From Candidatus Doudnabacteria bacterium RIFCSPHIGHO2_01_FULL_46_24 (lineage in GTDB: Bacteria; Patescibacteriota; Doudnabacteria; UBA920; O2-02-FULL-48-8), in contig MFEL01000010.1 of NCBI GenBank assembly GCA_001777575.1, positions 20,661-84,660 on the forward strand: DNA of 64,000 bases, read 5' to 3'. Each line of letters begins with the position of its first letter. Position 1 is the stretch's first letter. The translations under genes and the position numbers were made by a program. A model generated the notes under the pieces. It searched no databases. It worked only from the letters and a program-made list of their open reading frames with translations, and had not been told where the DNA came from. Below are positions 1 to 56,822 of the stretch, in pieces.

Positions 1-2328
1 ACTTACCAAAAATTGCTGCTGGACAATTCTTATCTGGATTTTGGCGACTTGATTAATTTCACTTTGAAACTTTTTCGCACTCGTCCGAAAATTCTCAAAC
101 GGTACCAAGCCCAGTATAAATACATTTTGGTGGATGAATTCCAAGATACGGATTTTTCACAATACGAAATGGTCAAGCTGCTGGCCATGCCGCAAAATAA
201 CCTCACGGTGGTTGGTGATGACGACCAGTCCATCTACAAATTCCGCGGCGCATCCGTCTCCAATATTTTGCAATTCAAAAGTGATTTCAAAAAAGCTCAA
301 GAAGTCACTCTGACTGAAAATTACCGCTCCAGCCAAAATATTTTGGATCTGGCTTATAAATTCATCCAGCAAAACAACCCTGAGCGCCTGGAGAGCAAGC
401 TTAAAATCGACAAAAAATTGAAGAGTGATAAAAAAGACCAAGGCCTCATTGAGGTTCTGCATGGCTCCAACATCCACGAAGAAGTGCGCTTGGTGGCTGA
501 TAAAATAAACGAGCTCACAGAGGCCGGTCTAAATTTAAGCGACTTTGCCATTCTGGTCCGAGCCAACGATTCGGCTGAGCCGTTTATCTCCGAATTGAGC
601 CGGCGCGGGGTTGGGTATATTTTTGTCGCCAACAGAGGGCTTTACAGAAAACCTTTTATCCTTGATCTCTTGGCATACTTGCGCCTTCTGGACAACCACC
701 ACGAAAGTGAAAACCTGTTTCGGGTGCTTGCAATGGAGAATTTCAAAATCTCGGATGCGGATTTGATGAACATTACCAGAACCGCGAAAATCAAGGCTCT
801 GTCGGTTTTTCATGTCCTGAGCAATGCCCGCAGTCTGATTAGGCTTGATGCCCCATCGGCCAAAAAAATCGACACGGTTGTGGGATTGATCGAGAAACAC
901 ACAGCGATGGCCCGCAGCACGCCTATATCTGAACTTATTGTTCGGATTCTTGATGATTTGGGTTTAATTAAGGAACTAAGCGCGGACAACGCCGCTGTTT
1001 CTGAGAAACGCAGCATGCTCGAGCAATTCTATAAGAAGGTTATGAGTTTTGAGGATGAGAGCAATGACAAAACCCTCAGAGGCTTTCTTGAAAATTTAAG
1101 GCTGGAGCTGGAAGCTGGGGATTTGGGAGAGCTTTCATACAATCCCGATTTGGGCCCGGAGGCAATGCGCCTCATGACAATCCATTCAGCCAAAGGGCTG
1201 GAGTTCAAATGCGTGTTTGTAGTCAACCTGGTTGACCAAAGATTTCCTTCCAGGGAGCGCCGGGATCAGATCGAAATCCCGTCGGAGTTAGTCAAGGAAA
1301 TCCTGCCGGAAGGGGATGTGCACCTGATGGAAGAGCGGCGGTTGTTTTACGTCGCGTGCACGCGAGCGAAGCAAAATCTCTATCTGACTTGGGCCGACGA
1401 CTACGGCGGCACCACGAACAAAAAGCCTTCCCGATTTTTGATTGAGCTTGATTTTGCCAAGCTCCCCGAAAAGTCCAAACCCGCCGGCGAGGTAATTTTC
1501 AAAAACCCGCCTGCGATCACAGATCACGGATCAAAGATCACGAATCAACTATTCATCCCCGATACTTTTTCGTTTTCTCAAATCAACACTTTTCGCAACT
1601 GTCCTTTGGAATACAAGCTGCGCTATATCTACCAATTGCCCCTTCCAGGTTCTTCGCACTTGTCACTGGGCGATACGGTCCATAAGACGCTCTATAAATT
1701 TTTAAGCCACTATGACCGCCTGAATAAACAAAAACAAGCTGATCTGTTCGGGGCGAAGCAGACCGCATCCGAAGTCCCAGGTTTGGATCTTTTAAAAAAG
1801 TTCTACGAAGAGTCCTGGGTGGACGATTGGTACCCGGACGCCATTGAAAAAAACCACGCCCGCAAGCTCGGGTGGGAGATGTTAGAAACGTTTCACAAAA
1901 GATTTTCGGAGCAACCCTCAACCATCAAATTTCTTGAGCAAAAATTCAAACTGAAACTGGGCAATTTCAAATTCACGGGCAAAATTGACCGCGCGGATCT
2001 CAACAGTGACAACTCGATTGACATCATTGACTACAAAACCGGCAAAATCAAGGAAAAATTGACGGCCGAGGACAAGGATCAACTGTTCATCTACCAATGG
2101 GCGGCGCAGGAGCAATTCAAGGAAAAAGTCCGCACCCTTAAATATTGGTACCTAAAAAGCCTCGGCGACAGTCCGAAATTCCTGGGCAGCAGCCAAGACA
2201 TCGAAAAAGTTAAGGTTAAACTCCTTCAGACCATCGAGCAAATAATCGACGCCATCAAATCAAATTCCTTCCCCAAACTCGACCAAAAAATTTCCCACGA
2301 CTGCAAATACCGTGATTTTATGGTATAA
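1..2328 (+). CDS. UvrD/PcrA/AddA-like ATP-dependent DNA helicase fused to a C-terminal PD-(D/E)XK nuclease domain; 5' end lies outside the window
   Basis: Helicase motifs VVGDDDQSIYKFRGA, TENYRSSQNIL and MTIHSAKGLEFKCVFV; C-terminal nuclease-like block IDYKTGK...DCKYRDF; ORF runs to the window edge. Confidence 0.8.
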   Translation, partial: TYQKLLLDNSYLDFGDLINFTLKLFRTRPKILKRYQAQYKYILVDEFQDTDFSQYEMVKLLAMPQNNLTVVGDDDQSIYKFRGASVSNILQFKSDFKKAQEVTLTENYRSSQNILDLAYKFIQQNNPERLESKLKIDKKLKSDKKDQGLIEVLHGSNIHEEVRLVADKINELTEAGLNLSDFAILVRANDSAEPFISELSRRGVGYIFVANRGLYRKPFILDLLAYLRLLDNHHESENLFRVLAMENFKISDADLMNITRTAKIKALSVFHVLSNARSLIRLDAPSAKKIDTVVGLIEKHTAMARSTPISELIVRILDDLGLIKELSADNAAVSEKRSMLEQFYKKVMSFEDESNDKTLRGFLENLRLELEAGDLGELSYNPDLGPEAMRLMTIHSAKGLEFKCVFVVNLVDQRFPSRERRDQIEIPSELVKEILPEGDVHLMEERRLFYVACTRAKQNLYLTWADDYGGTTNKKPSRFLIELDFAKLPEKSKPAGEVIFKNPPAITDHGSKITNQLFIPDTFSFSQINTFRNCPLEYKLRYIYQLPLPGSSHLSLGDTVHKTLYKFLSHYDRLNKQKQADLFGAKQTASEVPGLDLLKKFYEESWVDDWYPDAIEKNHARKLGWEMLETFHKRFSEQPSTIKFLEQKFKLKLGNFKFTGKIDRADLNSDNSIDIIDYKTGKIKEKLTAEDKDQLFIYQWAAQEQFKEKVRTLKYWYLKSLGDSPKFLGSSQDIEKVKVKLLQTIEQIIDAIKSNSFPKLDQKISHDCKYRDFMV

Positions 2329-2710
2329 TGGAAGCGTGAACACTCTGGCTGCAAAATCTTATTTGTTAATCGCTGACATTGTCTTCGGGGCAAGCCTGGC
2401 CTCAATGATTTTCCTGCTTATGGCAGTCAGTCCCGAATCAGGATTCGTGGTACTTCTGTCTTTTTATTCAATTCTGTTTCTGCTCGTGTTTACGACAGCG
2501 ATGCTGGCTGGATATTATATCCGGCAGTCTCTCGGGAACAGGGAGTTCGCTCTTCAAGACCTTCACGTCTCGGCTCGGCAGGGCTTGTGGCTCGCAATCC
2601 TCGTCACAATATCATTCGTTTTACTTGCACTCGAAATGTTCTCAACCATGCCTGTTGCCCTGCTCACGCTTGCCTTGGTTTTCTTGGAATCATATTTAAC
2701 GCTCAAGTAA
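2312..2710 (+). CDS. small hydrophobic membrane protein, hypothetical
   Basis: Four predicted TM stretches; overlaps the helicase stop by 17 nt; no recognisable motif. Confidence 0.35.
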   Translation: MILWYNGSVNTLAAKSYLLIADIVFGASLASMIFLLMAVSPESGFVVLLSFYSILFLLVFTTAMLAGYYIRQSLGNREFALQDLHVSARQGLWLAILVTISFVLLALEMFSTMPVALLTLALVFLESYLTLK

Positions 2711-3825
2711 TGTCAATGCCAGAAACACAAAGTCAATCCGATGAAGTAAATTATGTTGTCATGCCTCCCTTAGGCAGGAAGCCTGTAGAAACGTCTCAGC
2801 ATCCGCAAGCGCAGTCTCCGGAAGTTGGCGCGCCGTTTGTTCGCAAGTGGTTTTACATTGCCGGAGCCGTGCTTTTGGTGTTGCTTTTGGCACTCCTGTG
2901 GTACTTCAGATTCGCGAATCAGGATGAAACCGATCAACCTATTGCGACGCAAACCCGCCTGCCGAGGGTTTGGTTAAACCAGCATTTTGGATCAGAGGTT
3001 TGCGCTAACGATAAAATTTGTGGCGACACTGCTGATCCTGACGCGGATGGGCTCAGCAACTTCAATGAATTCAAGGAAGGGACCGACCCCAAAAATTCCG
3101 ACACGGATATGGATGGCTTAGCTGACAGCGACGAGCTTACTGTCTTCAAGACAGACCCAAACCTCAAATACACGGACCGGCGCGAGATCGCCGCAACCAA
3201 TGATTACAATGACGCTGTATCGATTGCGAACGGTTATGACCCGCTGACTCCTGGATTTAGGATGACGAAAAGCCGCTTGGCGCAAATAGAAGCGGACACC
3301 AAGCAACATCAATTTCATGAGCCGACAATTTCGACTTTACAAACGCTTAGGCCAGAAGCGCAACCTGCGCCCACCCCAACCTCATTGGCGCCGGTAACCG
3401 CCAGTCGTCAGAACTGCGGCGTGGTCGAAGGCCTTCACCTCCTGGCGGAAAGGGATAAGCTTACAGCAGTCGAAAGTAATTCCCTTAACTGCATTGATCA
3501 GGCCATGATCAGCTGCTTGCCTGCAAAGATCTCTGTGCATAATACACTTGAGTCAACCAAAGAGCTTGGTAACAGCGAGTTTGAAGTTATCGGTAAAGTC
3601 GGCGGTGACTGCAGAATGAAAAATGATCCGCAAGCGCCCACGCAGCTTTCACCTAAACGAACTTGCGGGGTGCCTCTAGCTTTTATTGCAAATCTTGACA
3701 AGCAAGCGAAAGCTCAACCCACAGCCGGACCGGGCATTGTTTTCTTTGCCGTTTCCATTGGCATGAGCTTTGGTGAATTGACTGATTCCGCCACAGGTGA
3801 AAAAATAACCTTTTCTTGCGCATGA
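2710..3825 (+). CDS. membrane-anchored secreted protein with thrombospondin-type-3-like Ca-binding repeats
   Basis: ATG at 2710 (MSMPETQ); TM segment WFYIAGAVLLVLLLALLWYF; repeats DTADPDADGLSNFNEFKEGTDPKNSDTDMDGLADSDE. Confidence 0.5.
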   Translation: MSMPETQSQSDEVNYVVMPPLGRKPVETSQHPQAQSPEVGAPFVRKWFYIAGAVLLVLLLALLWYFRFANQDETDQPIATQTRLPRVWLNQHFGSEVCANDKICGDTADPDADGLSNFNEFKEGTDPKNSDTDMDGLADSDELTVFKTDPNLKYTDRREIAATNDYNDAVSIANGYDPLTPGFRMTKSRLAQIEADTKQHQFHEPTISTLQTLRPEAQPAPTPTSLAPVTASRQNCGVVEGLHLLAERDKLTAVESNSLNCIDQAMISCLPAKISVHNTLESTKELGNSEFEVIGKVGGDCRMKNDPQAPTQLSPKRTCGVPLAFIANLDKQAKAQPTAGPGIVFFAVSIGMSFGELTDSATGEKITFSCA

Positions 3826-4175
3826 GTCTGTTAAGTTGGTTGCATAAATCGAAATTTCCAGGAATAATCGCGGCAAGGGTTACTAAAATTGAAAAACATC
3901 CGAATGCCGATCGGTTGCGAGTCGTCGAATTGACCGACGGTGAAAGAACGATAGCGCCCGTGGTCTGCGGAGCTTTTAATTTTGAAGTTGGCGCCAAGGT
4001 AGCCTTAGCCCTCCCTGGCGCTAAAATTTTGCGTAATATCCATTCCGCAGCGCACGAGCCGTTTGTCTTGCAGAAAGCCACCATTCGCGGCATCGAAAGC
4101 CAGGGGATGATTTGCTCGGCGTTTGAACTGGGCTTATCAGATTCCCCGGCAGGGAATTATGATTTTGGAAGATGA
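3816..4175 (+). CDS. stand-alone tRNA-binding domain protein (PheT B1 / CsaA / Myf-like)
   Basis: KHPNADRLRVVELTDGERTIAPVVCGAFNFEVGAKVALALPGA...IRGIESQGMICSAFELGL matches the tRNA_bind fold of the PheT N-terminus. Confidence 0.7.
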   Translation: MRMSLLSWLHKSKFPGIIAARVTKIEKHPNADRLRVVELTDGERTIAPVVCGAFNFEVGAKVALALPGAKILRNIHSAAHEPFVLQKATIRGIESQGMICSAFELGLSDSPAGNYDFGR

Positions 4176-4226
4176 TGTAAAGATTGGTAAAAGGTTCTCA
4201 AGCGACATGGTAAATTTTCAGTAAAT

Positions 4227-4252
4227 GCTTCACTACTGCAGTGCAGTGAAGC
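4227..4252 (+). promoter_or_regulatory. hairpin GCTTCACT-N10-AGTGAAGC containing the CAGTGCAGTGAAG motif, 27 nt upstream of pheS
   Basis: Perfect 8-bp inverted repeat; the same 13-mer recurs at 16376-16396 upstream of folA. Confidence 0.4.
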
Positions 4253-4278
4253 ATATACATAGCGGAAGTTAATAGTCT

Positions 4279-5409
4279 ATGGCAACAATAAATGTTGATG
4301 CAACCGAAGAAGAAAGGCTCAAGGAACAACTTGAAAAGCGCGCAGACTTTGAAGCGCAGCGAATCAGGCGGTATTTAAGCATGCCGGATTTATCAAGAAC
4401 CGAGGGAAGTCCGATTCAAGAAATTGTCAAGCGCGCAAGCCAGGTCAAAAGCCTGCAGGATTTCGACGTAATTCAAGTGCCGGAAATCGTGCCGGCGCAT
4501 ATCTTGTTTGACCTGTTCAACATGCCGCCGGGACATCCCGCGCGAAGCAAATCGGACACTTACTATGTTGACGAAGAACATGTGCTAAGAACCCATGACA
4601 CGGTTTTCTGGTATTACTATCTGAATGACCCGGCAATCAAACAAAGAATCGCGAATAAAGAAACACTTGGAACTATTTGTTACGGCAAAGTCTACCGCAA
4701 GGATGAGATTGACAGCAGGCACATGAATGTCTTTCACCAATTTGGCGCCTGGCTAATCGCGCCCGATGACAAGCAAATTTTCACTCCCGATGATCTCAAG
4801 CGAGCGCTGGCCGAGGTTGGCACGAGCGTTTTTGGCTCCACCAATTTTCGTTTTTATGACCACAACTTCCCCTATACGGATCCGAGCTTTGAAATGGAAG
4901 CGGAAATTAAAGGACAATGGATGGAAATGGTCGGCTCGGGAATGGTCAGAAAGACCGTGCTTAAAAATTTGGGCTTGGAGGGATATAACGGTTGGGCGTT
5001 CGGCTTCGGCCTGGAAAGGCTGGCGATTGCCAGCATGGATTTGCCGGACATCCGCCTGCTGTGGTCCCAGGACCCGCGCGTGACCAAGCAGCTTAAGCTT
5101 GGCCAAAAATTCGTGGAAGTCAGCAAATACCCGCCGATCACGCGCGACATCTCTTTCATCGTGGATAAAAATTTTGTGCCCAACAATTACTTCGACTTAA
5201 TCCGCGACATCGGCGGCGATCTGGTGGAGCAGGTCGAGCTTTTGGATAAATTTGAAAACGAAGCTAAATTCCACAAAGACAAAATCAGCTACACCTATCG
5301 AGTGGTTTACAGAAGCCCTGAGCGAACCCTTAAAACCGAAGAAGTTGAACCTCTGCAAGCCAAGCTTTATGACGAAACCAAAAAGCAGTTTAACGCAGAG
5401 TTAAGATAA
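4279..5409 (+). CDS. pheS: phenylalanyl-tRNA synthetase alpha-type catalytic subunit fused to a C-terminal FDX-ACB anticodon-binding domain (mitochondrial/monomeric PheRS-like architecture)
   Basis: Class II motif 2 YRKDEIDSRHMNVFHQFG and motif 3 GWAFGFGLERLAIASMDLPDIRLLW; C-terminal ~95 aa (SKYPPITRDISFIVDKN...YRSPERTLKTEEVEPL) resembles the PheT C-terminal FDX-ACB domain. Confidence 0.85.
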   Translation: MATINVDATEEERLKEQLEKRADFEAQRIRRYLSMPDLSRTEGSPIQEIVKRASQVKSLQDFDVIQVPEIVPAHILFDLFNMPPGHPARSKSDTYYVDEEHVLRTHDTVFWYYYLNDPAIKQRIANKETLGTICYGKVYRKDEIDSRHMNVFHQFGAWLIAPDDKQIFTPDDLKRALAEVGTSVFGSTNFRFYDHNFPYTDPSFEMEAEIKGQWMEMVGSGMVRKTVLKNLGLEGYNGWAFGFGLERLAIASMDLPDIRLLWSQDPRVTKQLKLGQKFVEVSKYPPITRDISFIVDKNFVPNNYFDLIRDIGGDLVEQVELLDKFENEAKFHKDKISYTYRVVYRSPERTLKTEEVEPLQAKLYDETKKQFNAELR

Positions 5410-5452
5410 TTGTTTCTGTGGATAACTTGACTACAAAGATCACCTTCGTAAT

Positions 5453-6838
5453 ATGGAAACAGAGCGCAATGTAATAAAAAAAATCTCCTCGGAGGGGGAG
5501 GATTGGGTTAACAGACGCGAATCTGCCAGAGAAGATGAACCGGAACATAAAAGGCAGGATATATTTGGCGCCAACTTTTTGCATTGGTGGAACATTGCGC
5601 ATAAAACAGGCGAGGATTGGTCTAAAATGACCGTTGGTCGTCTTGCGGATCATATCAACAAAACAGCTGACCAAACATGGAAACGGAATTTTAAGCGATT
5701 AGAAGAAGAGATGGTCGCGGGTGCAAAAACGGATCCCTGGTCTTTTCAGCAGTTTTTCGCAAATTATCTGATGGATAGAGTGCCCGATCTTGGGCGATTA
5801 AGTAAGCGCCTCGATTTAAGCATGAAACAGCCAAGAGCGAACCAGGATCTTATCCTGTTGGCGGCTGTGTTTGAGGGAGAAAGAGGAGCTAAAGCCACGG
5901 AACTGGGGATTAGTTTGACTGCGGAATATCAGAATGGCAATAAGATTCTCCCGGCAAAACTCGTGGCTTCAATGATTGATTATCATAGTCAGCATGTGTT
6001 GGAAAGCGAGCGCCAATTTATGGAAATGATCCCGGAATACTTGGACAAGATAAAAACGCTATTACTTGCCGCTTCTAATTCGGGAGAGATTCCGATAAAG
6101 ACAGATACGATTTTAGAACGCCTGGGGGCTTTACGTTTTGCGGTTGTGGACGGCCTGACTGCGAAACTCCGGGACTTTTCCGGCGACTTTAAAGACCACA
6201 CGCATACGATTAGAATCTCGTCTGAAGCCCGGCCCGAGCACGTTGGCATGATTATGTCCCATGAAATTATCCATGCGCTGGCTGGGCAACTGGAATATTC
6301 CAGCGTTTCGAAGGTGTTTGAAGATAATCCTGAACTCTTTGTTCTAGTCGAGCGTCATGAGTTATTAAAAGGCGGCTTGCACTTTAGTAAAGACGTTGGA
6401 GAAAAACAATCGGATTTGCCTTCTCTACGCTTGCGTTGGTTAAACGAAGCATTGACGGAACAAGCGGCAATCGATTTGGTCAAGGGAACGGAATACGTAG
6501 GCTTTGACACTTATGAGCTTGAAAGAAAACTTCTAGATAAACTGGTCGCTCTGGGTATATCAAAATCGTTGCTTTATGAGGCTTATTTTGAAAATTATGC
6601 GGCTGACTCTACCGGCGGACACCGCCTTCCCAAAACGCGGGAGTTATTTGAAACAGTCAATCGTTTGCTTGGCCGCGGCTTTTTGGTTAATCTGGATATT
6701 TATATAAGATCCAATCGAGACGGCGTAAAATTAGCATTGCAGAAATGGGAAGACCTAGGTGCTGAATTTCCGTCATTTATTAACGATTTCGGCGCAGGTA
6801 AAATTAAAGAATTAAGGGATAGTTCGGAATTAAGGTAA
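5453..6838 (+). CDS. hypothetical protein with HExxH...NEAxxE gluzincin-like motif (putative zinc metallopeptidase)
   Basis: MSHEIIHAL, then about 60 aa later WLNEALTEQAA (thermolysin-like NEAxSD pattern); no signal peptide; the start may lie further downstream (next candidate ATG about 5627). Confidence 0.4.
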   Translation: METERNVIKKISSEGEDWVNRRESAREDEPEHKRQDIFGANFLHWWNIAHKTGEDWSKMTVGRLADHINKTADQTWKRNFKRLEEEMVAGAKTDPWSFQQFFANYLMDRVPDLGRLSKRLDLSMKQPRANQDLILLAAVFEGERGAKATELGISLTAEYQNGNKILPAKLVASMIDYHSQHVLESERQFMEMIPEYLDKIKTLLLAASNSGEIPIKTDTILERLGALRFAVVDGLTAKLRDFSGDFKDHTHTIRISSEARPEHVGMIMSHEIIHALAGQLEYSSVSKVFEDNPELFVLVERHELLKGGLHFSKDVGEKQSDLPSLRLRWLNEALTEQAAIDLVKGTEYVGFDTYELERKLLDKLVALGISKSLLYEAYFENYAADSTGGHRLPKTRELFETVNRLLGRGFLVNLDIYIRSNRDGVKLALQKWEDLGAEFPSFINDFGAGKIKELRDSSELR

Positions 6839-6890
6839 CTATACAAAAAGTGCCGATCGGTCAAAAGTGTATAGTGAAAAATTATAATTA

Positions 6891-7187
6891 GTGGCTTGGA
6901 TTATTACATTAGTTATTGCTCTGATTATCGGATACCTGGCGGGCCGGCGGCGGGGAAGGGTTAATTTTGCCTCACCAAACCGGGCGGCGATGGTTCAAAA
7001 ACAAGAACATCTGGACACAATTATGAAATCATTTGCGCCTGGCGATGAGTTGAGCAACGACAAAGTCCAGGATCTACTCCAGGTCTCGGATGCCACAGCA
7101 GAACGGTACTTAAACGAGCTTGAATATCAAGGTAAATTGAGGCAAATCGGCAAAGCCGGAAAATACGTGATTTATCACAAACTTTAA
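6891..7187 (+). CDS. small membrane-anchored winged-helix DNA-binding protein
   Basis: N-terminal TM WIITLVIALIIGYLAG; C-terminal DLLQVSDATAERYLNELEYQGKLRQIGKAGKYVIYHKL resembles a Fic/DeoR-type wHTH. Confidence 0.45.
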   Translation: MAWIITLVIALIIGYLAGRRRGRVNFASPNRAAMVQKQEHLDTIMKSFAPGDELSNDKVQDLLQVSDATAERYLNELEYQGKLRQIGKAGKYVIYHKL

Positions 7188-7188
7188 C

Positions 7189-7216
7189 GCCTCAGCTTCA
7201 TTTGAGGCGTTAAAAA
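7189..7216 (+). terminator. rho-independent terminator
   Basis: AACGCCTCA-gcttcatt-TGAGGCGTT followed by AAAAAT. Confidence 0.6.
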
Positions 7217-7219
7217 TAC

Positions 7220-7251
7220 CTATATTTTTAGGGCAAAAAATGTGCTATAAT
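7220..7251 (+). promoter_or_regulatory. extended -10 promoter (TGCTATAAT) for gyrB
   Basis: TGnTATAAT at 7243-7251, 85 nt upstream of the gyrB ATG. Confidence 0.45.
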
Positions 7252-7271
7252 ATTATGGGTGAATTAGCTAA

Positions 7272-7322
7272 TTGCGGGTTTGCGGATTACGCATTTAATC
7301 CGTAATTCGTTAATTCGCAATT
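7272..7322 (+). repeat. CGGATTACG / AATCCGTAATTCG hairpin repeat in the gyrB 5' UTR
   Basis: Shares words with 11161-11224, 12045-12117, 31822-31856 and 50155-50216. Confidence 0.5.
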
Positions 7323-7336
7323 AAAGAATTATCTAA

Positions 7337-9294
<1,958 letters not shown>

Positions 9295-9295
<1 letters not shown>

Positions 9296-25998: not shown

Positions 25999-26000
25999 AA

Positions 26001-26031
26001 AAAGGGGACAGCCATAGACTGTCCCGACTGC
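26001..26031 (-). terminator. terminator for the minus-strand gene at 26048-26902 (hairpin plus T-run on the minus strand)
   Basis: GGGACAG-ccataga-CTGTCCC with AAAAAAA upstream on the plus strand (a T-run on the minus strand). Confidence 0.55.
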
Positions 26032-26047
26032 GGCGATCGGTCCGTCG

Positions 26048-26902
26048 CTAGTCCAACTTCAACTTGCCGACCGCCTTGCGCCACTTCCTGAGCAAGCCGT
26101 CGAGCCTCCTATTCTCCGCCCGAAGGCGCTTGTTTTCCTCGAGAACCTCGAGCGTAGCCGTTGCGATCAGCTCGATGTTCTCAGCCAGGAATACGGCCGA
26201 GTCCTTCTGCGCCGCTTCCTGCTTCAGCACGCGCTTCCGCTGGCGTACCGACTTCCGCGTCGTCTTTTTGGCAGGCTTGGCCGTGACCACGCCCGCTGCC
26301 TGGCGGGCCTTGCGGATCGCTTGCGCCAAGCCGCCGAGCGTGGCGTCCTTGTAGCCAGTCTCATGTACCTTGCCAAGGATTGCCTTAGCAGAGGCCTGAC
26401 AACTCAGGGCGGCATTGTCCAGCGTGGCTGCAAACTTCCACAACTGCTGCAAGCCAAGCTTGGTGTACTTATCTTTGCCATGCTTGGTAGCACTGGCTGT
26501 TGCCGGGGTCATACGCACCTCCTTCGGAATTGCCGCCACCAGCCTGGCTGGCAGAACGGCGGTTGTGATTGGCACTGTTGCCGGAGCCGGCTTGATCGGC
26601 CTCCGGTAGGCCAGAATCAGGTTCTTGATCTGACCAATTTCCATCAGCTGGACCGAGAACGCGATCCCTTGCCGCTTCGCCATCTTCTTCACCCGTTCTA
26701 CGATAGGATGGGAAAGATACTTGGCAAAGTACACCTGAAACACCGAACCCGGAATATCACTCTTGCGTTCCCCATCCTGGTCGCTCCAGAAGATTACCTT
26801 CGGATCGCGCCAAAGCTCGGCCCAGTCCCTAGGCAGCCCCCCAACGACGAGTATATGTCCGCGTCGCACTCTGATATCACCTCCTTCAAACGTGCCAGTC
26901 AC
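26048..26902 (-). CDS. DUF2325-like domain protein with a C-terminal basic region plus leucine-zipper-like coiled coil (high GC)
   Basis: HILVVGG...DIPGSVFQVYFAKYLSHPIVERVKKMAKRQGIAF resembles DUF2325; C-terminus KKTTRKSVRQRKRVLKQEAAQK followed by LEENKRLRAENRRLDGLLRK; GC about 60 percent against a background of about 47 percent. Confidence 0.5.
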   Translation of the reverse strand: MTGTFEGGDIRVRRGHILVVGGLPRDWAELWRDPKVIFWSDQDGERKSDIPGSVFQVYFAKYLSHPIVERVKKMAKRQGIAFSVQLMEIGQIKNLILAYRRPIKPAPATVPITTAVLPARLVAAIPKEVRMTPATASATKHGKDKYTKLGLQQLWKFAATLDNAALSCQASAKAILGKVHETGYKDATLGGLAQAIRKARQAAGVVTAKPAKKTTRKSVRQRKRVLKQEAAQKDSAVFLAENIELIATATLEVLEENKRLRAENRRLDGLLRKWRKAVGKLKLD

Positions 26903-27060
26903 GAACTAATAAACCTACCATAACCGAGTAATTTTGTCCAGGCGCCACGGATGTGCAGGATTGACTTTGTCGGAGATTTTTGTTATACTTATCCGTTCTT
27001 TCGTATATGAGTCCCAAGGAGGACTTTTTGCGCGCCATACCGGCGCGCGTGGAGGCAACG

Positions 27061-28137
27061 ATGAGACGCTTGCTCGTAGCGGTCGCGCTCGTGGCATTTC
27101 TGCTCGGTATCGTGACTGGAGCAAAAGCTGGCGGAGTGGAACGGACCATCTTGTCGCTGGACCTCAACAGCGACGGTCGGGAGGATCTGCTCGTATACGA
27201 CCCGACGACCGGCGCGTTCACACGAGTGTTCCAGTATCCCGGCTGGCCATACGCCGCGCCGACCGAATACTGGCTGCCAGGGATGAATGTGGTCATGGGA
27301 TTTCTGGACGAGGATGCCTCGCCAGACGTGATCTTCTACGACCCGGCAACCGGCCTGGTCTGGCAGGCTCTCAACTACGCTGGGACGCTATATGTTACCA
27401 CCGTCACGTCCTGGCCCAGGGGCATGCTGGCGTACCCGTTTGACCACAACGGCGACGGGGCTACGGATTTCTTCCTGTACAACCGGGTAACAGGGGAGTG
27501 GTCACTCCAGCTCAACACCTGGAACGGCTACTTCACGGAAGTCAACGGCCGGTGGTCTGAGGGCTGGGAGATACGAGTGGGTAACTTCTCCGCCTTCGAT
27601 CATAACCAGGACCTGCTCCTGTACAACCGGGAGACAGGCGTCTGGTACAAGGCCCTGTCTGACGGCTTCGGCGGGTTCTATTACTCACAGCCTGGCCGCT
27701 GGTCGCCGGGATGGAACGTGTCCATCGGGCGATTCAATATCGACGCGGCCGATGACGTGTTCCTCTACAACCCTGTAACCGGAGTCTGGTTTCGGGTCTT
27801 CTCGGATGGCTGGACCGGCTTCTACTGGTACGAGAGGGGGGGATGGTCGGCGGGGTGGAGTGTTCTCATCGCGAGGCTGGAAAAACGCGGCCTCGATGAC
27901 CTGATTCTCTACCATGCTGGCACTGGCGCTGGGTTCGCCTGCGTAACGCAAGCCTACGCCGGCTTCAGGTACCATCGGCTGACGCTGTACAATAGTGCCG
28001 TGCCGATGGTGCAGGACTTCAGCGGGGATCGGCTGTCCGATCTGCTGCTGTGGATTGACCTGACCAACCCGGTCGGGTTCAGTCGGTACAAGTCCGTGCT
28101 AAGAGGAGGCAACTTCGACCACCTTGAGTGGTGGTAG
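27061..28137 (+). CDS. secreted FG-GAP/VCBS-like repeat protein, predicted 7-bladed beta-propeller (high GC)
   Basis: Signal peptide MRRLLVAVALVAFLLGIVTGAKA; 7 repeats of about 50 aa with D-x-[DN]-x-D-G-x-x-D-L/F plus the hydrophobic YNxxTGxW pattern. Confidence 0.6.
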   Translation: MRRLLVAVALVAFLLGIVTGAKAGGVERTILSLDLNSDGREDLLVYDPTTGAFTRVFQYPGWPYAAPTEYWLPGMNVVMGFLDEDASPDVIFYDPATGLVWQALNYAGTLYVTTVTSWPRGMLAYPFDHNGDGATDFFLYNRVTGEWSLQLNTWNGYFTEVNGRWSEGWEIRVGNFSAFDHNQDLLLYNRETGVWYKALSDGFGGFYYSQPGRWSPGWNVSIGRFNIDAADDVFLYNPVTGVWFRVFSDGWTGFYWYERGGWSAGWSVLIARLEKRGLDDLILYHAGTGAGFACVTQAYAGFRYHRLTLYNSAVPMVQDFSGDRLSDLLLWIDLTNPVGFSRYKSVLRGGNFDHLEWW

Positions 28138-28166
28138 CTACGCCGAGCCGACTCGACGCAGCAAGG

Positions 28167-28212
28167 GTCGCGCGGCAGGGTTCAGCCCCTGACCGCGCGA
28201 CCCTTCTTTTTT
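28167..28212 (+). terminator. rho-independent terminator
   Basis: GGGTCGCGCGG-17nt-CCGCGCGACCC followed by TTCTTTTTTT. Confidence 0.85.
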
Positions 28213-53743: not shown

Positions 53744-55510
53744 TTAAAATTTTACCGTCTCGCCAGGCTGGATATGTCCTGTCTGGTCATGACTTTTATC
53801 CACAGGTAAATCTGCTTCTTGCTGCGGCTTTTTTAAGGATTCCGCCAGACCCTTGCTCAGGGTTTCAACTGCAGACTCTGTTTTCTTCGTCTGCTGATTG
53901 AGTACCTTGTCCCAAACCGGATTATCCGGCTTTTTCTCATTACTTCTTCGGGTGGAATGCTCTTGGGTTTGCTTTTGCCTTCTCTCAATCTGCCTGCGAT
54001 CCTCTCGCTGAGGTTTCTTTTGCTCAGTTGGCTTAAACGGTGCGGTGCGGTCAGTCTTTGGTTCAAGCGGGTCTGCCTGCCCAGCATCAGCTTGGTGCTG
54101 GGTCTGCCTGATGGCTTGGGCGCTCCCTGCCGTTACACGCTCGCGATAGCGCAGCTCTTCCTGCAGGTCTTGCTGGTCCACCGCCGCACTCTCGGCCTGG
54201 GCAGCCTCTGCATGAAACTCAGCGCCCATCCATTTGTTGATTTTTTCCTCGATCACAGACCTGGGCGTGGCGTAACGCTCTCTGGAAACTTTAATCACTT
54301 TTTCGGTGTTACCGGTGGGAACCGAGATTGGGGGCAGAGTGGTTGCGGAAAACGGATGCGAGGCCACACCGTTAATCATCAGTTTGAGATAAATATTGTA
54401 CTTGGCTAAATTCACCAAATCATTCATCGTATATTCCGGCTCAAATTCCTTTTCCAGAAACTCGGCATCTTCCGCTCCCATCCTGAAACAAACCATGGTC
54501 CCGACGTTGCCGAAAATGGCGTCCCGAACCGTTGTGTTTCGCTCAAATACCAGCTGGCCGATATACTGGTGCGCCACGATTAGGTTGAGTCGGTACTTCC
54601 TGGCTTCGGATAATATATTGGCAAAAGAATTGGTCGCGAAATTTTGGAACTCGTCGACGTAAAGGTAAAAATCTTCGCGAGTTTCCTCGGGTATATCCAC
54701 CCGGCTCATGGCCGCCAGCTGCAATTTGGTGATGAGCATCGCACCCAGCAGGGCGGAGTTGTCTTCCCCAATGCGGCCCTTGGACAGGTTGATCAAAAAG
54801 ATCTTCTTGTTATCCATAATATCGCGCAAATCTATGGCGCTTTTAGTCTGGCCGACTATGTTGCGGATGATGGCCGAGGAAAGAAATTGCCCAACCTTGT
54901 TTTGGATAGGGGCAATGGCTTCGTTTCGGAATTTATCGTTATAATTGGCAAATTCGTCCACCCAAAAAGACTTGACCACCGGGTCTTTGATATTGTCCAC
55001 AATTTTTTTTCGGTAAGCTTTATTGACCAGCATCCGCGCAATCCCAAGCATGGTGTTGCCGGGAGAGTCAAGCAGGGCCAAAATCGTGTTGCTTAAAATA
55101 TATTCCATCCTGGCCGACCACACTCCGGCCCAGATTTTGGTAAACACCCCCATCAATCCCGAGGCGACCAAATGCTTGTATTTGGGATCCACCGCTTCCA
55201 GCGGATTGAACGCGATCGGAAAGTCCAAATCAGCCGGATTGAAATAAACCACGTCATTGACTCTGTCGGAGGGGATATATTCCAAGACTTTTTCCACCGA
55301 ATCGCCGTGCGGATCGACAAACGTCACGCCGTGTCCGTTTTGGATATCCTGAACGACCATATTCTCGATCAAAGTGGTTTTACCCATGCCGGTTTTTCCA
55401 ATGATGTACATGTGCCGGCGCCGGTCGTCTTGGCGGATGCCAAAAGGCGTTTCGCGGTTGCGAAAATTGGTTTTGGCGAACAAGATGATATCGTTATTCT
55501 GGTCCATAAT
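53744..55510 (-). CDS. FtsK/HerA-superfamily P-loop ATPase (DUF87 / T4CP-like), lacking its own TM anchor, with a long disordered Q/E/K-rich C-terminal tail
   Basis: Walker A IIGKTGMGKTT, FVDPHGD, Walker B LYVDEFQNF, AHQYIGQL; probable start MDQNND at 55510, 1 nt after the upstream stop. Confidence 0.7.
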   Translation of the reverse strand: MMDQNNDIILFAKTNFRNRETPFGIRQDDRRRHMYIIGKTGMGKTTLIENMVVQDIQNGHGVTFVDPHGDSVEKVLEYIPSDRVNDVVYFNPADLDFPIAFNPLEAVDPKYKHLVASGLMGVFTKIWAGVWSARMEYILSNTILALLDSPGNTMLGIARMLVNKAYRKKIVDNIKDPVVKSFWVDEFANYNDKFRNEAIAPIQNKVGQFLSSAIIRNIVGQTKSAIDLRDIMDNKKIFLINLSKGRIGEDNSALLGAMLITKLQLAAMSRVDIPEETREDFYLYVDEFQNFATNSFANILSEARKYRLNLIVAHQYIGQLVFERNTTVRDAIFGNVGTMVCFRMGAEDAEFLEKEFEPEYTMNDLVNLAKYNIYLKLMINGVASHPFSATTLPPISVPTGNTEKVIKVSRERYATPRSVIEEKINKWMGAEFHAEAAQAESAAVDQQDLQEELRYRERVTAGSAQAIRQTQHQADAGQADPLEPKTDRTAPFKPTEQKKPQREDRRQIERRQKQTQEHSTRRSNEKKPDNPVWDKVLNQQTKKTESAVETLSKGLAESLKKPQQEADLPVDKSHDQTGHIQPGETVKF

Positions 55511-55511
55511 T

Positions 55512-56822
55512 TTAACCAATCGGTAAATCAGCCGGCGGAGCTGATTTGACTGCCTGAACTTTTTCAAGCTGGGAGACCCTGACATTCGGCGCAACTGGGA
55601 AATGAAAAACCGTGGCGAGCTCTTCGGTATTCATATAGTTCTCTCCAGTTCCCTGCCAAATTTTTCGCCCGAGGAAATAATGCCACATATGGCGCTTGCG
55701 GACCAAGGTTTGGTGGCGCAAAGCCGGGGCTTCCAAAGTTGGCGACAGCTTATAATCCGGGTTGGTCCAGGTGTGGGCGATATCCGGCTTAAGGCCGTTC
55801 AAATTCACATCATCAAAATTGCGGAATGCGCCAATAATCTCCGGCACGCGCAATGATCGGTTGAACTTGTCCTTGGGCGCCAGATAAAGCAGGCGAAGTT
55901 TGAACTTGTAATAAATTTTGCCAAGAGCATTCTCCACGTCTGCAATAATTTTTTTTTCCACGTCGCTTTTGTGCAGCATCAGAGTCGGCGGCTCTTCCTT
56001 GACATGCTGTTGTTCCACTTCTGCTTCAACTCCCATAATATCATGCACTAAAATATCCATAAAATACCTGGGAATGGAGATAACACTGTTAAACCAGCCG
56101 TTCTTATGTTCAGAGCGAGCGCCCTTGAGTTCGTCCAAAAGATACTTGGTGTTTTTTTTCCAGTCGTCATTAATCGGCTGGATGCAAAGCTGGTAAGCCA
56201 GCAGTTCCCAGGGTTGAATATTGCTCATAACTTCAATAATATTGGATACCGGGTCAATGAATGTCTCCTGCTCCTTGTGTTCAAATCCCATAATCAGCCG
56301 GATGGGATAGGCATTGTCTTTTTTTTTGTTCAGCTGTGTGCCCCAAAATTCAAAATCAGCGGATTGAGGATAATACTCATGCGGCATATTCCTGAGGTAG
56401 TCTTCGGTTTCACTAATCTCGGCTCTTGGGTACTGGGCGAAAATAGCGCTCTCCAAAAGCGCGCGATAACGCTTTGGTATTTTGAATATGTACGAAACCT
56501 TGCCGCCGAGAGAAACAATTTCGCAAGACAACCACAACACGCTCTTGCCGCCAAATAGAGTTTCACCGAAGCTGTAATTGGTATGGATTGCGTGGAGCGC
56601 GGCGAATACTTGCTCCATGGCTAACGACGAGCGCTCGTTCAGGTCATGAATTTTAAGCTCCAAGAAAATCCATTCAATGCTGTTAATATAAGCCGTATTG
56701 TTTTTGATCGTGGTCAGCTTGTACCACATCCAAAGCAGCAGGCCCAAAAAAAATACCCAGCCAAATGGGACCAAGCCGTAATCCACCGCAAAACTGAATA
56801 AATCTCGTAGCGCTTGAATCAT
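55512..56822 (-). CDS. hypothetical membrane protein (N-terminal TM), partner of the ATPase
   Basis: TM GLVPFGWVFFLGLLLWMW followed by an about 400-aa soluble domain with no known motif. Confidence 0.5.
   Translation of the reverse strand: MIQALRDLFSFAVDYGLVPFGWVFFLGLLLWMWYKLTTIKNNTAYINSIEWIFLELKIHDLNERSSLAMEQVFAALHAIHTNYSFGETLFGGKSVLWLSCEIVSLGGKVSYIFKIPKRYRALLESAIFAQYPRAEISETEDYLRNMPHEYYPQSADFEFWGTQLNKKKDNAYPIRLIMGFEHKEQETFIDPVSNIIEVMSNIQPWELLAYQLCIQPINDDWKKNTKYLLDELKGARSEHKNGWFNSVISIPRYFMDILVHDIMGVEAEVEQQHVKEEPPTLMLHKSDVEKKIIADVENALGKIYYKFKLRLLYLAPKDKFNRSLRVPEIIGAFRNFDDVNLNGLKPDIAHTWTNPDYKLSPTLEAPALRHQTLVRKRHMWHYFLGRKIWQGTGENYMNTEELATVFHFPVAPNVRVSQLEKVQAVKSAPPADLPIG

What the first reader, a model, noticed from the sequence alone, without database searches (positions are those of the whole stretch)
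3816..5409. Mitochondrial-type PheRS architecture: PheS core fused to an FDX-ACB domain, preceded by a stand-alone PheT-B1-like tRNA-binding domain; no pheT
The 376-aa protein has the class II PheS catalytic motifs (YRKDEIDSRHMNVFHQFG; GFGLERLAI). Its last ~95 aa (PPITRDISFIVDKN...YRSPERTLKTEEVEPL) look like the ferredoxin-fold anticodon-binding domain, which in bacteria sits at the C-terminus of the beta subunit PheT. PheS core plus FDX-ACB is the layout of the monomeric mitochondrial PheRS. Directly upstream is a 119-aa gene encoding only a tRNA_bind (PheT B1-like) domain. No full-length pheT occurs in the 64 kb. This suggests a minimised or split PheRS rather than the canonical (alpha-beta)2 enzyme.
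Basis: partly seen in the sequence, partly recalled or inferred. Interest (0 to 1): 0.7.

Follow-up and report, generated by a model that had tools for sequence, protein, structure and literature searches.

The report
Single-chain mitochondrial-type PheRS in CPR bacteria
This Doudnabacteria (CPR) genome, like hundreds of other Parcubacteria, encodes a one-chain phenylalanyl-tRNA synthetase built like the mitochondrial enzyme (catalytic core plus anticodon-binding domain, no proofreading domain), so a layout regarded as organelle-specific seems to be the everyday enzyme of a large bacterial radiation.

Summary
ORF 4279-5409 (376 aa) is a PheS-type class II core fused to an FDX-ACB domain. It scores twice as high against human mitochondrial PheRS as against any bacterial PheS, and its model superposes full-length on 3CMQ. 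The upstream ORF is a tRNA_bind OB fold, but it corresponds to PheT domain B2, not B1. In this lineage a 1-nt insertion truncates it. No editing (B3/B4), B5 or B6/7 segment of PheT occurs in the 64 kb window or in 1.38 Mb of related loci.

The enzyme is no oddity of this genome. At least 585 matches in GTDB species genomes encode it at 63-80% identity, next to gyrB in 71 of 80 loci, and it is more conserved than GyrB. The B2-like gene is adjacent only in Doudnabacteria-type genomes (25 of ~76 loci). It is fused in-frame to the synthetase in 8 independent clusters, so it is a linked but optional accessory.

Relatives also occur in huge phages, giant viruses and eukaryotes. The CPR clade is separate from these.

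Untested: whether a canonical pheST exists elsewhere in these genomes. No description was found in the literature searched, and NCBI labels the protein "hypothetical". Verdict: new variant of a known kind, moderately high interest.

The parts
4279..5409 (+). Single-chain PheRS gene (376 aa plus stop): PheS-type class II catalytic core fused to an FDX-ACB anticodon-binding domain
   Evidence: ORF; Pfam PF01409 + PF03147; best PDB matches are human mitochondrial PheRS; AF2 model pLDDT 95.3, pTM 0.90; Foldseek top hit 3CMQ/5MGW, TM 0.79
4396..5091 (+). Catalytic core (aa 40-271), including motif 2 (aa 139-156, nt 4693-4746), the FPY Phe-pocket motif (aa 197-199) and motif 3 (aa 242-250, nt 5002-5028)
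   Evidence: Pfam tRNA-synt_2d, 172 bits. R140, F197-P198-Y199, A240 and R247 align to E. coli R195, F248-P249-F250, A294 and R301, and are 100% conserved in 240 family members
5122..5406 (+). FDX-ACB (ferredoxin-fold anticodon-binding) domain, aa 282-376, the equivalent of PheT domain B8
   Evidence: Pfam PF03147, 83.3 bits; TIGR00472 pheT_bact positions 693-798; tblastn E. coli PheT 699-794 maps to 5116-5406
3822..4175 (+). Truncated stand-alone tRNA_bind (PheT B2-like OB-fold) gene, 117 aa (119 aa from the TTG at 3816)
   Evidence: Pfam PF01588, 55.4 bits; best NCBIfam match is pheT_bact positions 41-131; tblastn E. coli PheT 42-133; the alignment shows the C-terminal strand is missing
4153..4224 (+). 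Frameshifted remnant of the small gene's C-terminal tail (GIMILEDDVKIGKRFSSDMVNFQ*), in the +1 frame relative to the upstream ORF. The apparent cause is a 1-nt insertion in the GGG run near 4150-4155.
   Evidence: Three-frame translation and comparison with intact relatives. The DNA is identical in four independent assemblies, L001-L004.
7337..9295 (+). gyrB, the conserved housekeeping neighbour of the single-chain PheRS gene (context only)
   Evidence: Pfam on the called genes of L001; a gyrB homologue lies within 10 kb of the PheRS gene in 71 of 80 related loci

Best explanation
ORF 4279-5409 encodes the working, housekeeping phenylalanyl-tRNA synthetase of this Doudnabacteria genome. It is a single-chain enzyme homologous over its whole length to mitochondrial PheRS (FARS2/MSF1).

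Shown: the PheS-type core carries the full ATP- and Phe-binding inventory. The C-terminal FDX-ACB domain is the same anticodon-reading module that sits at the end of PheT in ordinary bacteria. No editing domain (B3/B4) is present.

Inferred by homology with the human enzyme: it works alone, without a beta subunit. It rests in a closed state with the anticodon-binding domain packed on the core, and opens on tRNA-Phe binding. It relies on active-site discrimination rather than proofreading against Tyr.

Shown: this enzyme type is inherited as a core gene, next to gyrB, across the Parcubacteria supergroup.

The upstream gene is a PheT-B2-like OB-fold tRNA-binding protein. In Doudnabacteria-type genomes it is an optional accessory of this synthetase, shown by adjacency and recurrent fusion. 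Its role as an added tRNA-affinity module, in trans or fused in cis, is inferred. In the lineage of this window it has lost its last strand to a frameshift and may be decaying.
For: - Domains and scores.
- Twofold higher score to human mtPheRS than to any bacterial PheS, with alignment through the linker and the anticodon-binding domain.
- Confident model (pLDDT 95.3, pTM 0.90) that matches closed-state 3CMQ at TM 0.79 and open-state 3TUP at TM 0.59.
- All key catalytic positions are 100% conserved. The window protein departs from the >=90% family consensus at only 2 of 376 positions.
- Perfectly covarying pocket positions 107/156: D/G in 121 sequences, T/D in 119, no other combination. This argues for selection on a working Phe pocket.
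The best 80 are all Patescibacteria at 63-80% identity.
- gyrB lies within 10 kb in 71 of 80 loci, and the PheRS is more conserved (64-75%) than GyrB (51-57%) outside Doudnabacteria.
- No PheT B3/4, B5 or B6/7 in the window or in 1.38 Mb of related loci.
- Small gene: adjacent in 25 loci, intact in 24 of them, fused in L070 and in 8 independent clusters of 504-520 aa.
Against: - The rest of the genome could not be searched, so a canonical pheS-pheT pair elsewhere is not excluded.
- The protein falls below every curated NCBIfam cutoff: pheS_mito 220 vs 258; SrmL 224 vs 300; pheS 159 vs 237.
- NCBI curators call a bacterial family of the same layout a 'mystery ligase', a precedent for a paralogue of unknown function.
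- There are no biochemical data. Oligomeric state and substrate are inferred from homology.
- The accessory gene is frameshifted here and absent near the gene in most lineages, so its contribution is uncertain.
- The fusion model's pTM of 0.72 gives no confident docking geometry.
Confidence: 0.7

Rival explanations
1. Accessory paralogue. The genome has a normal (alpha-beta)2 PheRS elsewhere, and this single-chain protein is a second, specialised ligase, comparable to NCBIfam's 'PheS-related mystery ligase SrmL'. It might have a different substrate, or act as a stress- or antibiotic-resistant backup.
For: The best NCBIfam hit by score is SrmL (223.7 bits), a bacterial family with the same two-domain layout and unknown role. 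Whole-genome absence of pheST was not tested. Other bacteria, e.g. an Oligoflexia MAG (P0246), carry related proteins.
Against: - The score is below the SrmL cutoff of 300, and none of 10 relatives tested reached it.
- The Phe-specificity Ala (E. coli A294) and the FPF-type pocket are invariant.
- The gene is present at 63-80% identity across many Parcubacteria lineages, in conserved synteny with gyrB, and is more conserved than GyrB. That is the pattern of a core essential gene, not of an accessory one.
- A redundant 3.4-kb pheST operon would be unexpected in ~1-Mb streamlined genomes (inference).
Confidence: 0.2
2. Recent foreign acquisition. The gene came from a eukaryote, giant virus or huge phage and sits in a mobile or prophage region. 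It would say nothing about the ancestral state of CPR bacteria.
For: Relatives at 33-40% identity are on 46 IMG/VR contigs, many of 200-536 kb, and in giant viruses such as Yasminevirus. Identity to the window protein does not track GyrB identity exactly among Doudnabacteria, which allows some lateral exchange within the group.
Against: - The neighbours are housekeeping genes: uvrD-like helicase, gyrB, secE-nusG-rplK-rplA.
- The CPR sequences form a clade with 100% bootstrap support, inside an 88% bacterial clade that is separate from the eukaryote/virus/phage group.
- The closest non-CPR relatives are only 35-45% identical.
- GC content around the gene is the same as the rest of the window.
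Confidence: 0.05
3. The upstream OB-fold protein is a general, PheRS-independent tRNA-binding protein or chaperone (Trbp111/CsaA/YtpR type) that happens to lie next to the synthetase gene.
For: It also scores against YtpR (73 bits) and other tRNA_bind families. Most lineages with the single-chain PheRS lack it nearby, and it is disrupted in this genome with no visible effect on the synthetase gene.
Against: - Its best match is the PheT B2 segment (93.9 bits).
- It is immediately upstream on the same strand in 25 loci.
- It is fused in-frame to the synthetase in 8 clusters that have diverged to 66% identity, from four data sources.
Confidence: 0.15

Closest known systems
Mitochondrial phenylalanyl-tRNA synthetase (human FARS2, yeast MSF1; TIGR00469 pheS_mito; 'PheRS-M' in AARS Online, PMC11580382)
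   Same: Same two-domain chain: PheS-type core, short PDIRLxW linker, FDX-ACB. No editing domain and no beta subunit. Best sequence match in the PDB (200 bits) and full-length fold match to closed-state 3CMQ (TM 0.79).
   Different: It is bacterial and chromosomal, with no targeting peptide. It lacks a ~40-residue insertion of the human enzyme (human residues ~165-204). It scores below the TIGR00469 cutoff (220 vs 258). It forms a separate, well supported clade. In some genomes it is accompanied by or fused to a B2-like OB domain, which the mitochondrial enzymes examined here lack.
Canonical bacterial PheRS, (alpha-beta)2, PheS + PheT (TIGR00468 / TIGR00472; e.g. E. coli 3PCO, T. thermophilus 1PYS)
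   Same: The catalytic core is homologous to PheS (31% identity to E. coli PheS). The FDX-ACB domain matches PheT B8 and the small protein matches PheT B2.
   Different: PheT domains B1, B3/B4 (editing), B5 and B6/7 are absent. B8 is attached to the alpha-type chain. Most of the long N-terminal coiled coil of PheS is missing (the E. coli alignment starts at PheS residue 64). There is no adjacent pheT.
NCBIfam NF051887 'PheS-related mystery ligase SrmL'
   Same: The profile aligns over both domains (profile positions 14-346 of 349), so SrmL shares the PheS-core + FDX-ACB layout and is bacterial.
   Different: The score of 223.7 is below the cutoff of 300. None of 10 relatives tested reached it either. 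What SrmL does and which organisms carry it could not be established here; no paper was found.
Stand-alone or appended tRNA_bind OB-fold proteins (PheT domain B2, Trbp111, CsaA, YtpR, C-terminal domain of MetRS/EMAP II; Pfam PF01588)
   Same: The small protein is a PF01588 OB fold. Like these, it is expected to bind tRNA non-specifically and raise a synthetase's affinity for tRNA (established knowledge for Trbp111/Arc1p/MetRS-C; Roy & Ibba 2006 for PheT B2, as cited in PMC5370408).
   Different: It is closest to PheT B2 rather than to YtpR or CsaA. It is encoded next to, or fused to the N-terminus of, a single-chain PheRS. That arrangement was not found described in the literature searched.
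Single-chain PheRS genes of huge phages and giant viruses
   Same: Same two-domain architecture. Several pass the pheS_mito cutoff (P0260, P0262, P0273, P0284). They sit on phage-like contigs of 160-536 kb and in Yasminevirus.
   Different: Only 33-40% identical to the window protein. They group with the eukaryotic enzymes rather than with the CPR clade in the rough tree.

Membership tests
Mitochondrial-type single-chain PheRS (PheRS-M / TIGR00469) | PheS-type class II catalytic core with motifs 2 and 3 and the Phe pocket | tested here: met
   PF01409, 172 bits. R140, FPY197-199, A240 and R247 align to E. coli R195, FPF248-250, A294 and R301, and are invariant in the family.
Mitochondrial-type single-chain PheRS (PheRS-M / TIGR00469) | FDX-ACB anticodon-binding domain fused to the C-terminus of the catalytic chain | tested here: met
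   PF03147, 83.3 bits at residues 282-376. The alignment with human mtPheRS is continuous through the linker and the anticodon-binding domain.
Mitochondrial-type single-chain PheRS (PheRS-M / TIGR00469) | Whole-chain fold and domain arrangement as in solved mtPheRS | tested here: met
   Model pLDDT 95.3, pTM 0.90. Foldseek top hits 5MGW/3CMQ: E 1.6e-35, TM 0.79, rmsd 3.2 over ~386 columns.
Mitochondrial-type single-chain PheRS (PheRS-M / TIGR00469) | Score at or above the curated TIGR00469 cutoff (258.35 bits) | tested here: not met
   220.0 bits. A 57%-identical relative (P0241) reaches 264.3, and phage-type relatives reach 260-308.
Mitochondrial-type single-chain PheRS (PheRS-M / TIGR00469) | No editing (B3/B4) domain and no beta subunit needed | tested here: inconclusive
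   No B3/4, B5 or B6/7 in the protein, the 64-kb window or 1.38 Mb of related loci. The rest of the genome was not searchable.
Mitochondrial-type single-chain PheRS (PheRS-M / TIGR00469) | Monomeric quaternary structure and Phe-tRNA-Phe synthesis | not testable with these tools
   Needs SEC-MALS or native MS, plus aminoacylation assays.
NCBIfam NF051887 SrmL ('PheS-related mystery ligase') | Score at or above the curated cutoff (300 bits) | tested here: not met
   223.7 bits.
Canonical bacterial PheS (TIGR00468) | Score at or above the curated cutoff (237.45 bits) | tested here: not met
   159 bits, covering residues 9-272 only.
Canonical bacterial PheS (TIGR00468) | Encoded next to a full-length pheT | tested here: not met
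   No pheT within 64 kb here or within 10 kb in 80 related loci.
PheT, bacterial beta subunit (TIGR00472), for the small protein | Score at or above 402.65 bits, with B1-B8 domains | tested here: not met
   93.9 bits, matching profile positions 41-131 only, i.e. the B2 segment.
tRNA_bind OB-fold domain (Pfam PF01588), for the small protein | Score at or above the gathering cutoff (27 bits) | tested here: met
   55.4 bits, but matching profile positions 2-76 of 96. The missing end corresponds to the frameshifted tail.
YtpR family tRNA-binding protein (NF045760), for the small protein | Score at or above the curated cutoff (100 bits) | tested here: not met
   73.2 bits.

The most novel reading that the evidence does not exclude
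The whole Parcubacteria supergroup (hundreds to thousands of species) has replaced the universal bacterial (alpha-beta)2 PheRS with an editing-free single-chain enzyme as its only PheRS. This bacterial clade is the sister group of the mitochondrial, viral and phage enzymes rather than a derivative of them. The 'mitochondrial' PheRS architecture would then have been invented outside eukaryotes and imported, instead of arising by domain loss and fusion during mitochondrial evolution. The Doudnabacteria B2-core-B8 fusions would be snapshots of how PheT was dismantled or re-assembled.
Probability: 0.35. Interest if true: 0.8.

Novelty: new variant of a known kind. Interest (0 to 1): 0.6.

Why it matters
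From established knowledge and the reviews read here (e.g. PMC3275996, PMC11580382), PheRS comes in three forms: bacterial (alpha-beta)2, archaeal/eukaryotic (alpha-beta)2, and a monomeric form assigned to mitochondria.

If the single-chain enzyme is the sole PheRS of Parcubacteria, three things follow:
1. A major bacterial radiation translates Phe codons without PheRS editing. That bears on translational fidelity in ultra-small symbionts.
2. The origin of mitochondrial PheRS becomes testable with a bacterial sister group and with phage and giant-virus intermediates.
3. Annotation and marker-gene pipelines mishandle these genomes. NCBI calls the gene 'hypothetical protein'. JGI calls the 130-aa OB protein 'beta chain'. 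The protein fails the TIGR00468 cutoff. This can affect completeness estimates and phylogenomic matrices.

The B2-like partner and its fusions also give a natural system for asking what the poorly understood B2 domain of PheT does.

Tried and rejected
1. Literature. Ten full-text searches and several papers read found no description of a CPR or Parcubacteria single-chain PheRS, and nothing on 'SrmL'. An aaRS phylogeny paper (DOI 10.1007/s00239-016-9768-2) is not held. Absence from this library does not prove novelty.

2. Whole-genome search for pheT. No tool reads whole genomes. The single genome-contig scan went to the distribution of the single-chain gene. I had no CPR PheT sequence to use as a query, and an E. 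coli PheT query would have returned only enterobacteria.

3. Expected versus observed pheT in the 80 flanks. Even if every genome had a randomly placed pheT, only about 2 would be expected, so observing 0 is not significant. I do not use it as evidence of absence.

4. Promoter/terminator scan of 2300-7400. Counts were within the shuffle expectation and say nothing about co-transcription.

5. Rejected: the Gly at position 156 (E. coli E210) is a sign of decay. It is a subfamily trait that covaries perfectly with Asp at 107.

6. Rejected: the window is phage or eukaryotic contamination. The gene content is an ordinary CPR chromosome.

7. GenBank phage collection. Only one weak, near-full-length hit, LR745206.1 (635 kb, 29% identity). 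The other hits are canonical pheS in records that look like bacterial DNA.

8. Long (500-870 aa) representatives. The ones tested carry unrelated extra domains (AlaRS core, TACO1, methyltransferase), most likely gene-model fusions (my reading). They are not tRNA_bind fusions.
Full report
**What is there.** The window comes from a Candidatus Doudnabacteria genome (CPR/Patescibacteria). The 376-aa product is 100% identical to a protein of 'Candidatus Doudnabacteria bacterium RIFCSPLOWO2_02_FULL_...' that NCBI names 'hypothetical protein', and it lies on contig MFFG01000014.1 of assembly GCA_001777815.1. The large one (4279-5409) has a PheS-type class II core (PF01409, residues 40-271, 172 bits) and a C-terminal FDX-ACB domain (PF03147, residues 282-376, 83 bits against a cutoff of 31). 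The small one (3816/3822-4175) is a tRNA_bind OB fold (PF01588, 55 bits). tblastn with E. coli PheT, taken from NC_000913.3, hits the window at only two places. PheT residues 42-133 map to the small ORF and residues 699-794 map to the tail of the large ORF. Nothing matches the editing domain, B5 or B6/7. Pfam scans of 30 further ORFs show an ordinary CPR chromosome: RF, FtsEX, PyrG, GluRS, Fmt, MnmA, SecDF, H+-PPase and a T4SS coupling protein. There is no PheT and no free-standing editing factor. The only RNA gene found is tRNA-Gln.

**Corrections to the observation.** The small protein aligns to positions 41-131 of the PheT profile. In the T. thermophilus nomenclature this is the OB-fold domain B2, not B1 (established knowledge; PMC5370408 also calls it B2). 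The gene is also damaged in this lineage. Its relatives are 130-145 aa and end with '...G(K)GI(M/V)(I/L)L..D..LG..F...MI..', which also aligns to E. coli PheT. Here the frame breaks after '...LSDSPAG', and the missing tail (GIMILEDDVKIGKRFSSDMVNFQ*) is readable in the +1 frame at 4153-4224. A 1-nt insertion in a G run explains the break. The DNA is identical in four independent assemblies, and the 117-aa product is recorded on 18 contigs. It is therefore a real allele of this population rather than a one-off assembly error. All 24 other adjacent copies examined are intact.

**What the large protein is.** Against the PDB it scores about 200 bits (E 2e-58) with human mitochondrial PheRS and at most 106 bits with any bacterial PheS. 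The human alignment runs through the linker (PDIRLLWSQDPRVTKQL versus PDIRLFWCEDERFLKQF) and the whole anticodon-binding domain. An AlphaFold2 model built on a 47-sequence alignment is confident (pLDDT 95.3, pTM 0.90). Foldseek places it on human mtPheRS in the closed state (3CMQ/5MGW: TM 0.79, rmsd 3.2 Å over ~386 columns). The tRNA-bound open state 3TUP gives TM 0.59, and bacterial PheS chains cover only the core. In an alignment with E. coli PheS and 240 family members, four features are 100% conserved: the motif 2 arginine (R140, E. coli R195), the FPF-type pocket (F197-P198-Y199), the alanine that sets Phe specificity in E. coli (A240, E. coli A294; established knowledge) and the motif 3 arginine (R247, E. 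coli R301). The window protein differs from the ≥90% consensus at only two positions. One apparent defect is Gly156 where E. coli has E210. It is a subfamily trait. Positions 107 and 156 are D/G in 121 sequences and T/D in 119, and never T/G or D/D. One fusion protein shows D/G on the other subfamily's background. I read this as a relocated carboxylate in the amino-acid pocket. That reading is an inference, and I could not inspect coordinates.

**How widespread it is.** The protein search returned thousands of relatives, and the best 120 are 74-100% identical. The best 80 (63-80% identity) are all Patescibacteria. Their titles include Doudna-, Giovannoni-, Yanofsky-, Nomura-, Zambryski-, Wolfe-, Taylor- and Vogelbacteria, Paceibacterota and Minisyncoccia. 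A gyrB homologue lies within 10 kb in 71 of these 80 loci. Outside the Doudnabacteria-type genomes the synthetase is 64-75% identical to the window protein, while GyrB is only 51-57% identical. This is the behaviour of a vertically inherited, strongly constrained core gene.

**The small gene as partner.** A B2-like gene lies directly upstream on the same strand in 25 of about 76 loci with room for it, plus one at 677 bp. These are the Doudnabacteria-type genomes. The remaining ~50 loci have none within 10 kb, including some close Doudnabacteria relatives (L017, L084). In L070 the two genes are one reading frame, with the small gene's stop codon and the large gene's start codon both gone. A search with that 507-aa protein found eight distinct clusters of 504-520 aa carrying PF01588+PF01409+PF03147. 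They are 66-97% identical to the query and come from NCBI, JGI, ENA and Logan. A fusion that persists through that much divergence is good evidence that the two proteins act together. A model of the fusion folds well per domain (pLDDT 88.7), with an OB barrel at residues ~8-125. Its pTM of 0.72 does not support a fixed docking pose. The likely role is an auxiliary tRNA-binding module, as known for PheT B2, Trbp111 and MetRS C-terminal domains (inference from established knowledge). It is optional: it is absent near the gene in most lineages and broken here.

**Relatives outside CPR.** At 50% clustering only 198 clusters reach E ≤ 1e-30. They include:
- eukaryotic mitochondrial enzymes: fern, amphioxus, choanoflagellate, Allomyces, Schizosaccharomyces Msf1, locust;
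- a giant virus, Yasminevirus;
- an Oligoflexia MAG;
- short 345-357-aa proteins that pass the pheS_mito cutoff.

Two of these lineages (P0284, and P0399 from the P0262 cluster) sit on 160- and 341-kb contigs that look like huge phages. IMG/VR holds 46 such loci, many on 200-536-kb contigs. A bootstrapped neighbour-joining tree on 228 core columns, rooted with E. coli PheS, gives three results. CPR plus two metagenomic sequences has 100% support. A wider bacterial clade that includes the Oligoflexia protein has 88%. The eukaryote + virus + phage group has only ~55% (an earlier version is). This is a rough tree with a single outgroup. It argues against a recent import from eukaryotes or viruses, but it does not settle where the architecture arose.

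**Membership.** The protein has the architecture, fold and residues of the mitochondrial type but misses the curated TIGR00469 cutoff (220 vs 258). It also misses the cutoffs of SrmL (224 vs 300) and canonical pheS (159 vs 237). That explains the 'hypothetical protein' label at NCBI. JGI labels it 'alpha chain' and labels the OB protein 'beta chain'. I therefore describe it as working like, and homologous to, mitochondrial PheRS, forming its own bacterial subfamily.

**What remains open.** The case for 'sole housekeeping PheRS' rests on four things:
- conservation, synteny and taxonomic breadth;
- intact catalytic residues;
- the known self-sufficiency of the mitochondrial homologue;
- the small size of these genomes.

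I put it at about 0.7. The main rival is a paralogue that coexists with pheST, as the SrmL name suggests happens elsewhere. I put that at about 0.2.

**Verdict.** The enzyme kind is known. Its apparent role as the standard PheRS of a large bacterial radiation is a new variant, and so are the B2-like partner and its fusions. Interest 0.6.

Noticed in passing
window 4140-4224: The tRNA_bind gene carries a frameshift: an apparent 1-nt insertion in a GGG run. Its last ~24 codons are still readable in the +1 frame. The site lies inside a 7-bp hairpin (GATTCCC-CGGCA-GGGAATT, 4140-4158). The DNA is identical in four independent assemblies. All 24 other adjacent homologues examined are intact.
   Followed up: yes
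L070 9608-11131 (CAYLIB010000005.1); proteins P0405-P0412: Natural in-frame fusion of the B2-like OB domain, the PheS core and FDX-ACB (504-520 aa). It occurs in eight independent protein clusters that have diverged to 66% identity.
   Followed up: yes
window 4279-5409, residues 107 and 156 (also 110 and 195): The family splits about 50:50 into D107/G156 and T107/D156 types with perfect covariation; E. coli has T170/E210 at these positions. This looks like a relocated active-site carboxylate. P0407 shows D/G on the other subfamily's background.
   Followed up: partly
L090 (160-kb contig), L091 (341-kb contig), L092-L137 (IMG/VR): Single-chain PheRS genes of the pheS_mito type sit on huge-phage-like contigs (PhageMetallopep, PcfJ, Thy1, dCMP deaminase, mostly ORFans) and in giant-virus MAGs and Yasminevirus. 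46 IMG/VR loci were found.
   Followed up: partly
window 5453-6838 (+): A 461-aa ORF lies between the PheRS gene and gyrB. It has no Pfam hit and no tblastn match in any of the 80 related loci. It contains an HExxH motif (HEIIH), so it may be a lineage-specific metalloprotease-like insertion into otherwise conserved synteny.
   Followed up: no
window 26000-28200: This segment has 58.8% GC against ~47% elsewhere. It holds a 385-aa ORF (26980-28137) with repeated D-x-N-x-D-G...Y-N-x-x-T-G-x-W units that resemble FG-GAP/beta-propeller repeats, and a 284-aa ORF on the other strand. Neither has a Pfam hit, and no tandem DNA repeats were found. It may be an acquired island.
   Followed up: partly
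L039 and L068 (JACQLT010000001.1 and JACQLT010000003.1): One Parcubacteria MAG carries two copies of the single-chain PheRS gene (68% and 66% identical to the window protein), each at a contig end. This is either a mixed bin or a real duplication.
   Followed up: no
L010-L089, comparison of PheRS and GyrB identities: Among Doudnabacteria-type loci the PheRS and GyrB identities to the window are discordant. For example L041 has GyrB 82% but PheRS 69%, while L011 has GyrB 67% but PheRS 80%. This hints at exchange of the synthetase gene between related lineages, or at the two subfamily types segregating independently of organismal relatedness.
   Followed up: no
window 53744-55594 (-): A TrwB/VirD4-type type IV secretion coupling protein is followed by unannotated ORFs. 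This is consistent with the conjugation-like T4SS reported for Patescibacteria, and is unrelated to the finding.
   Followed up: no
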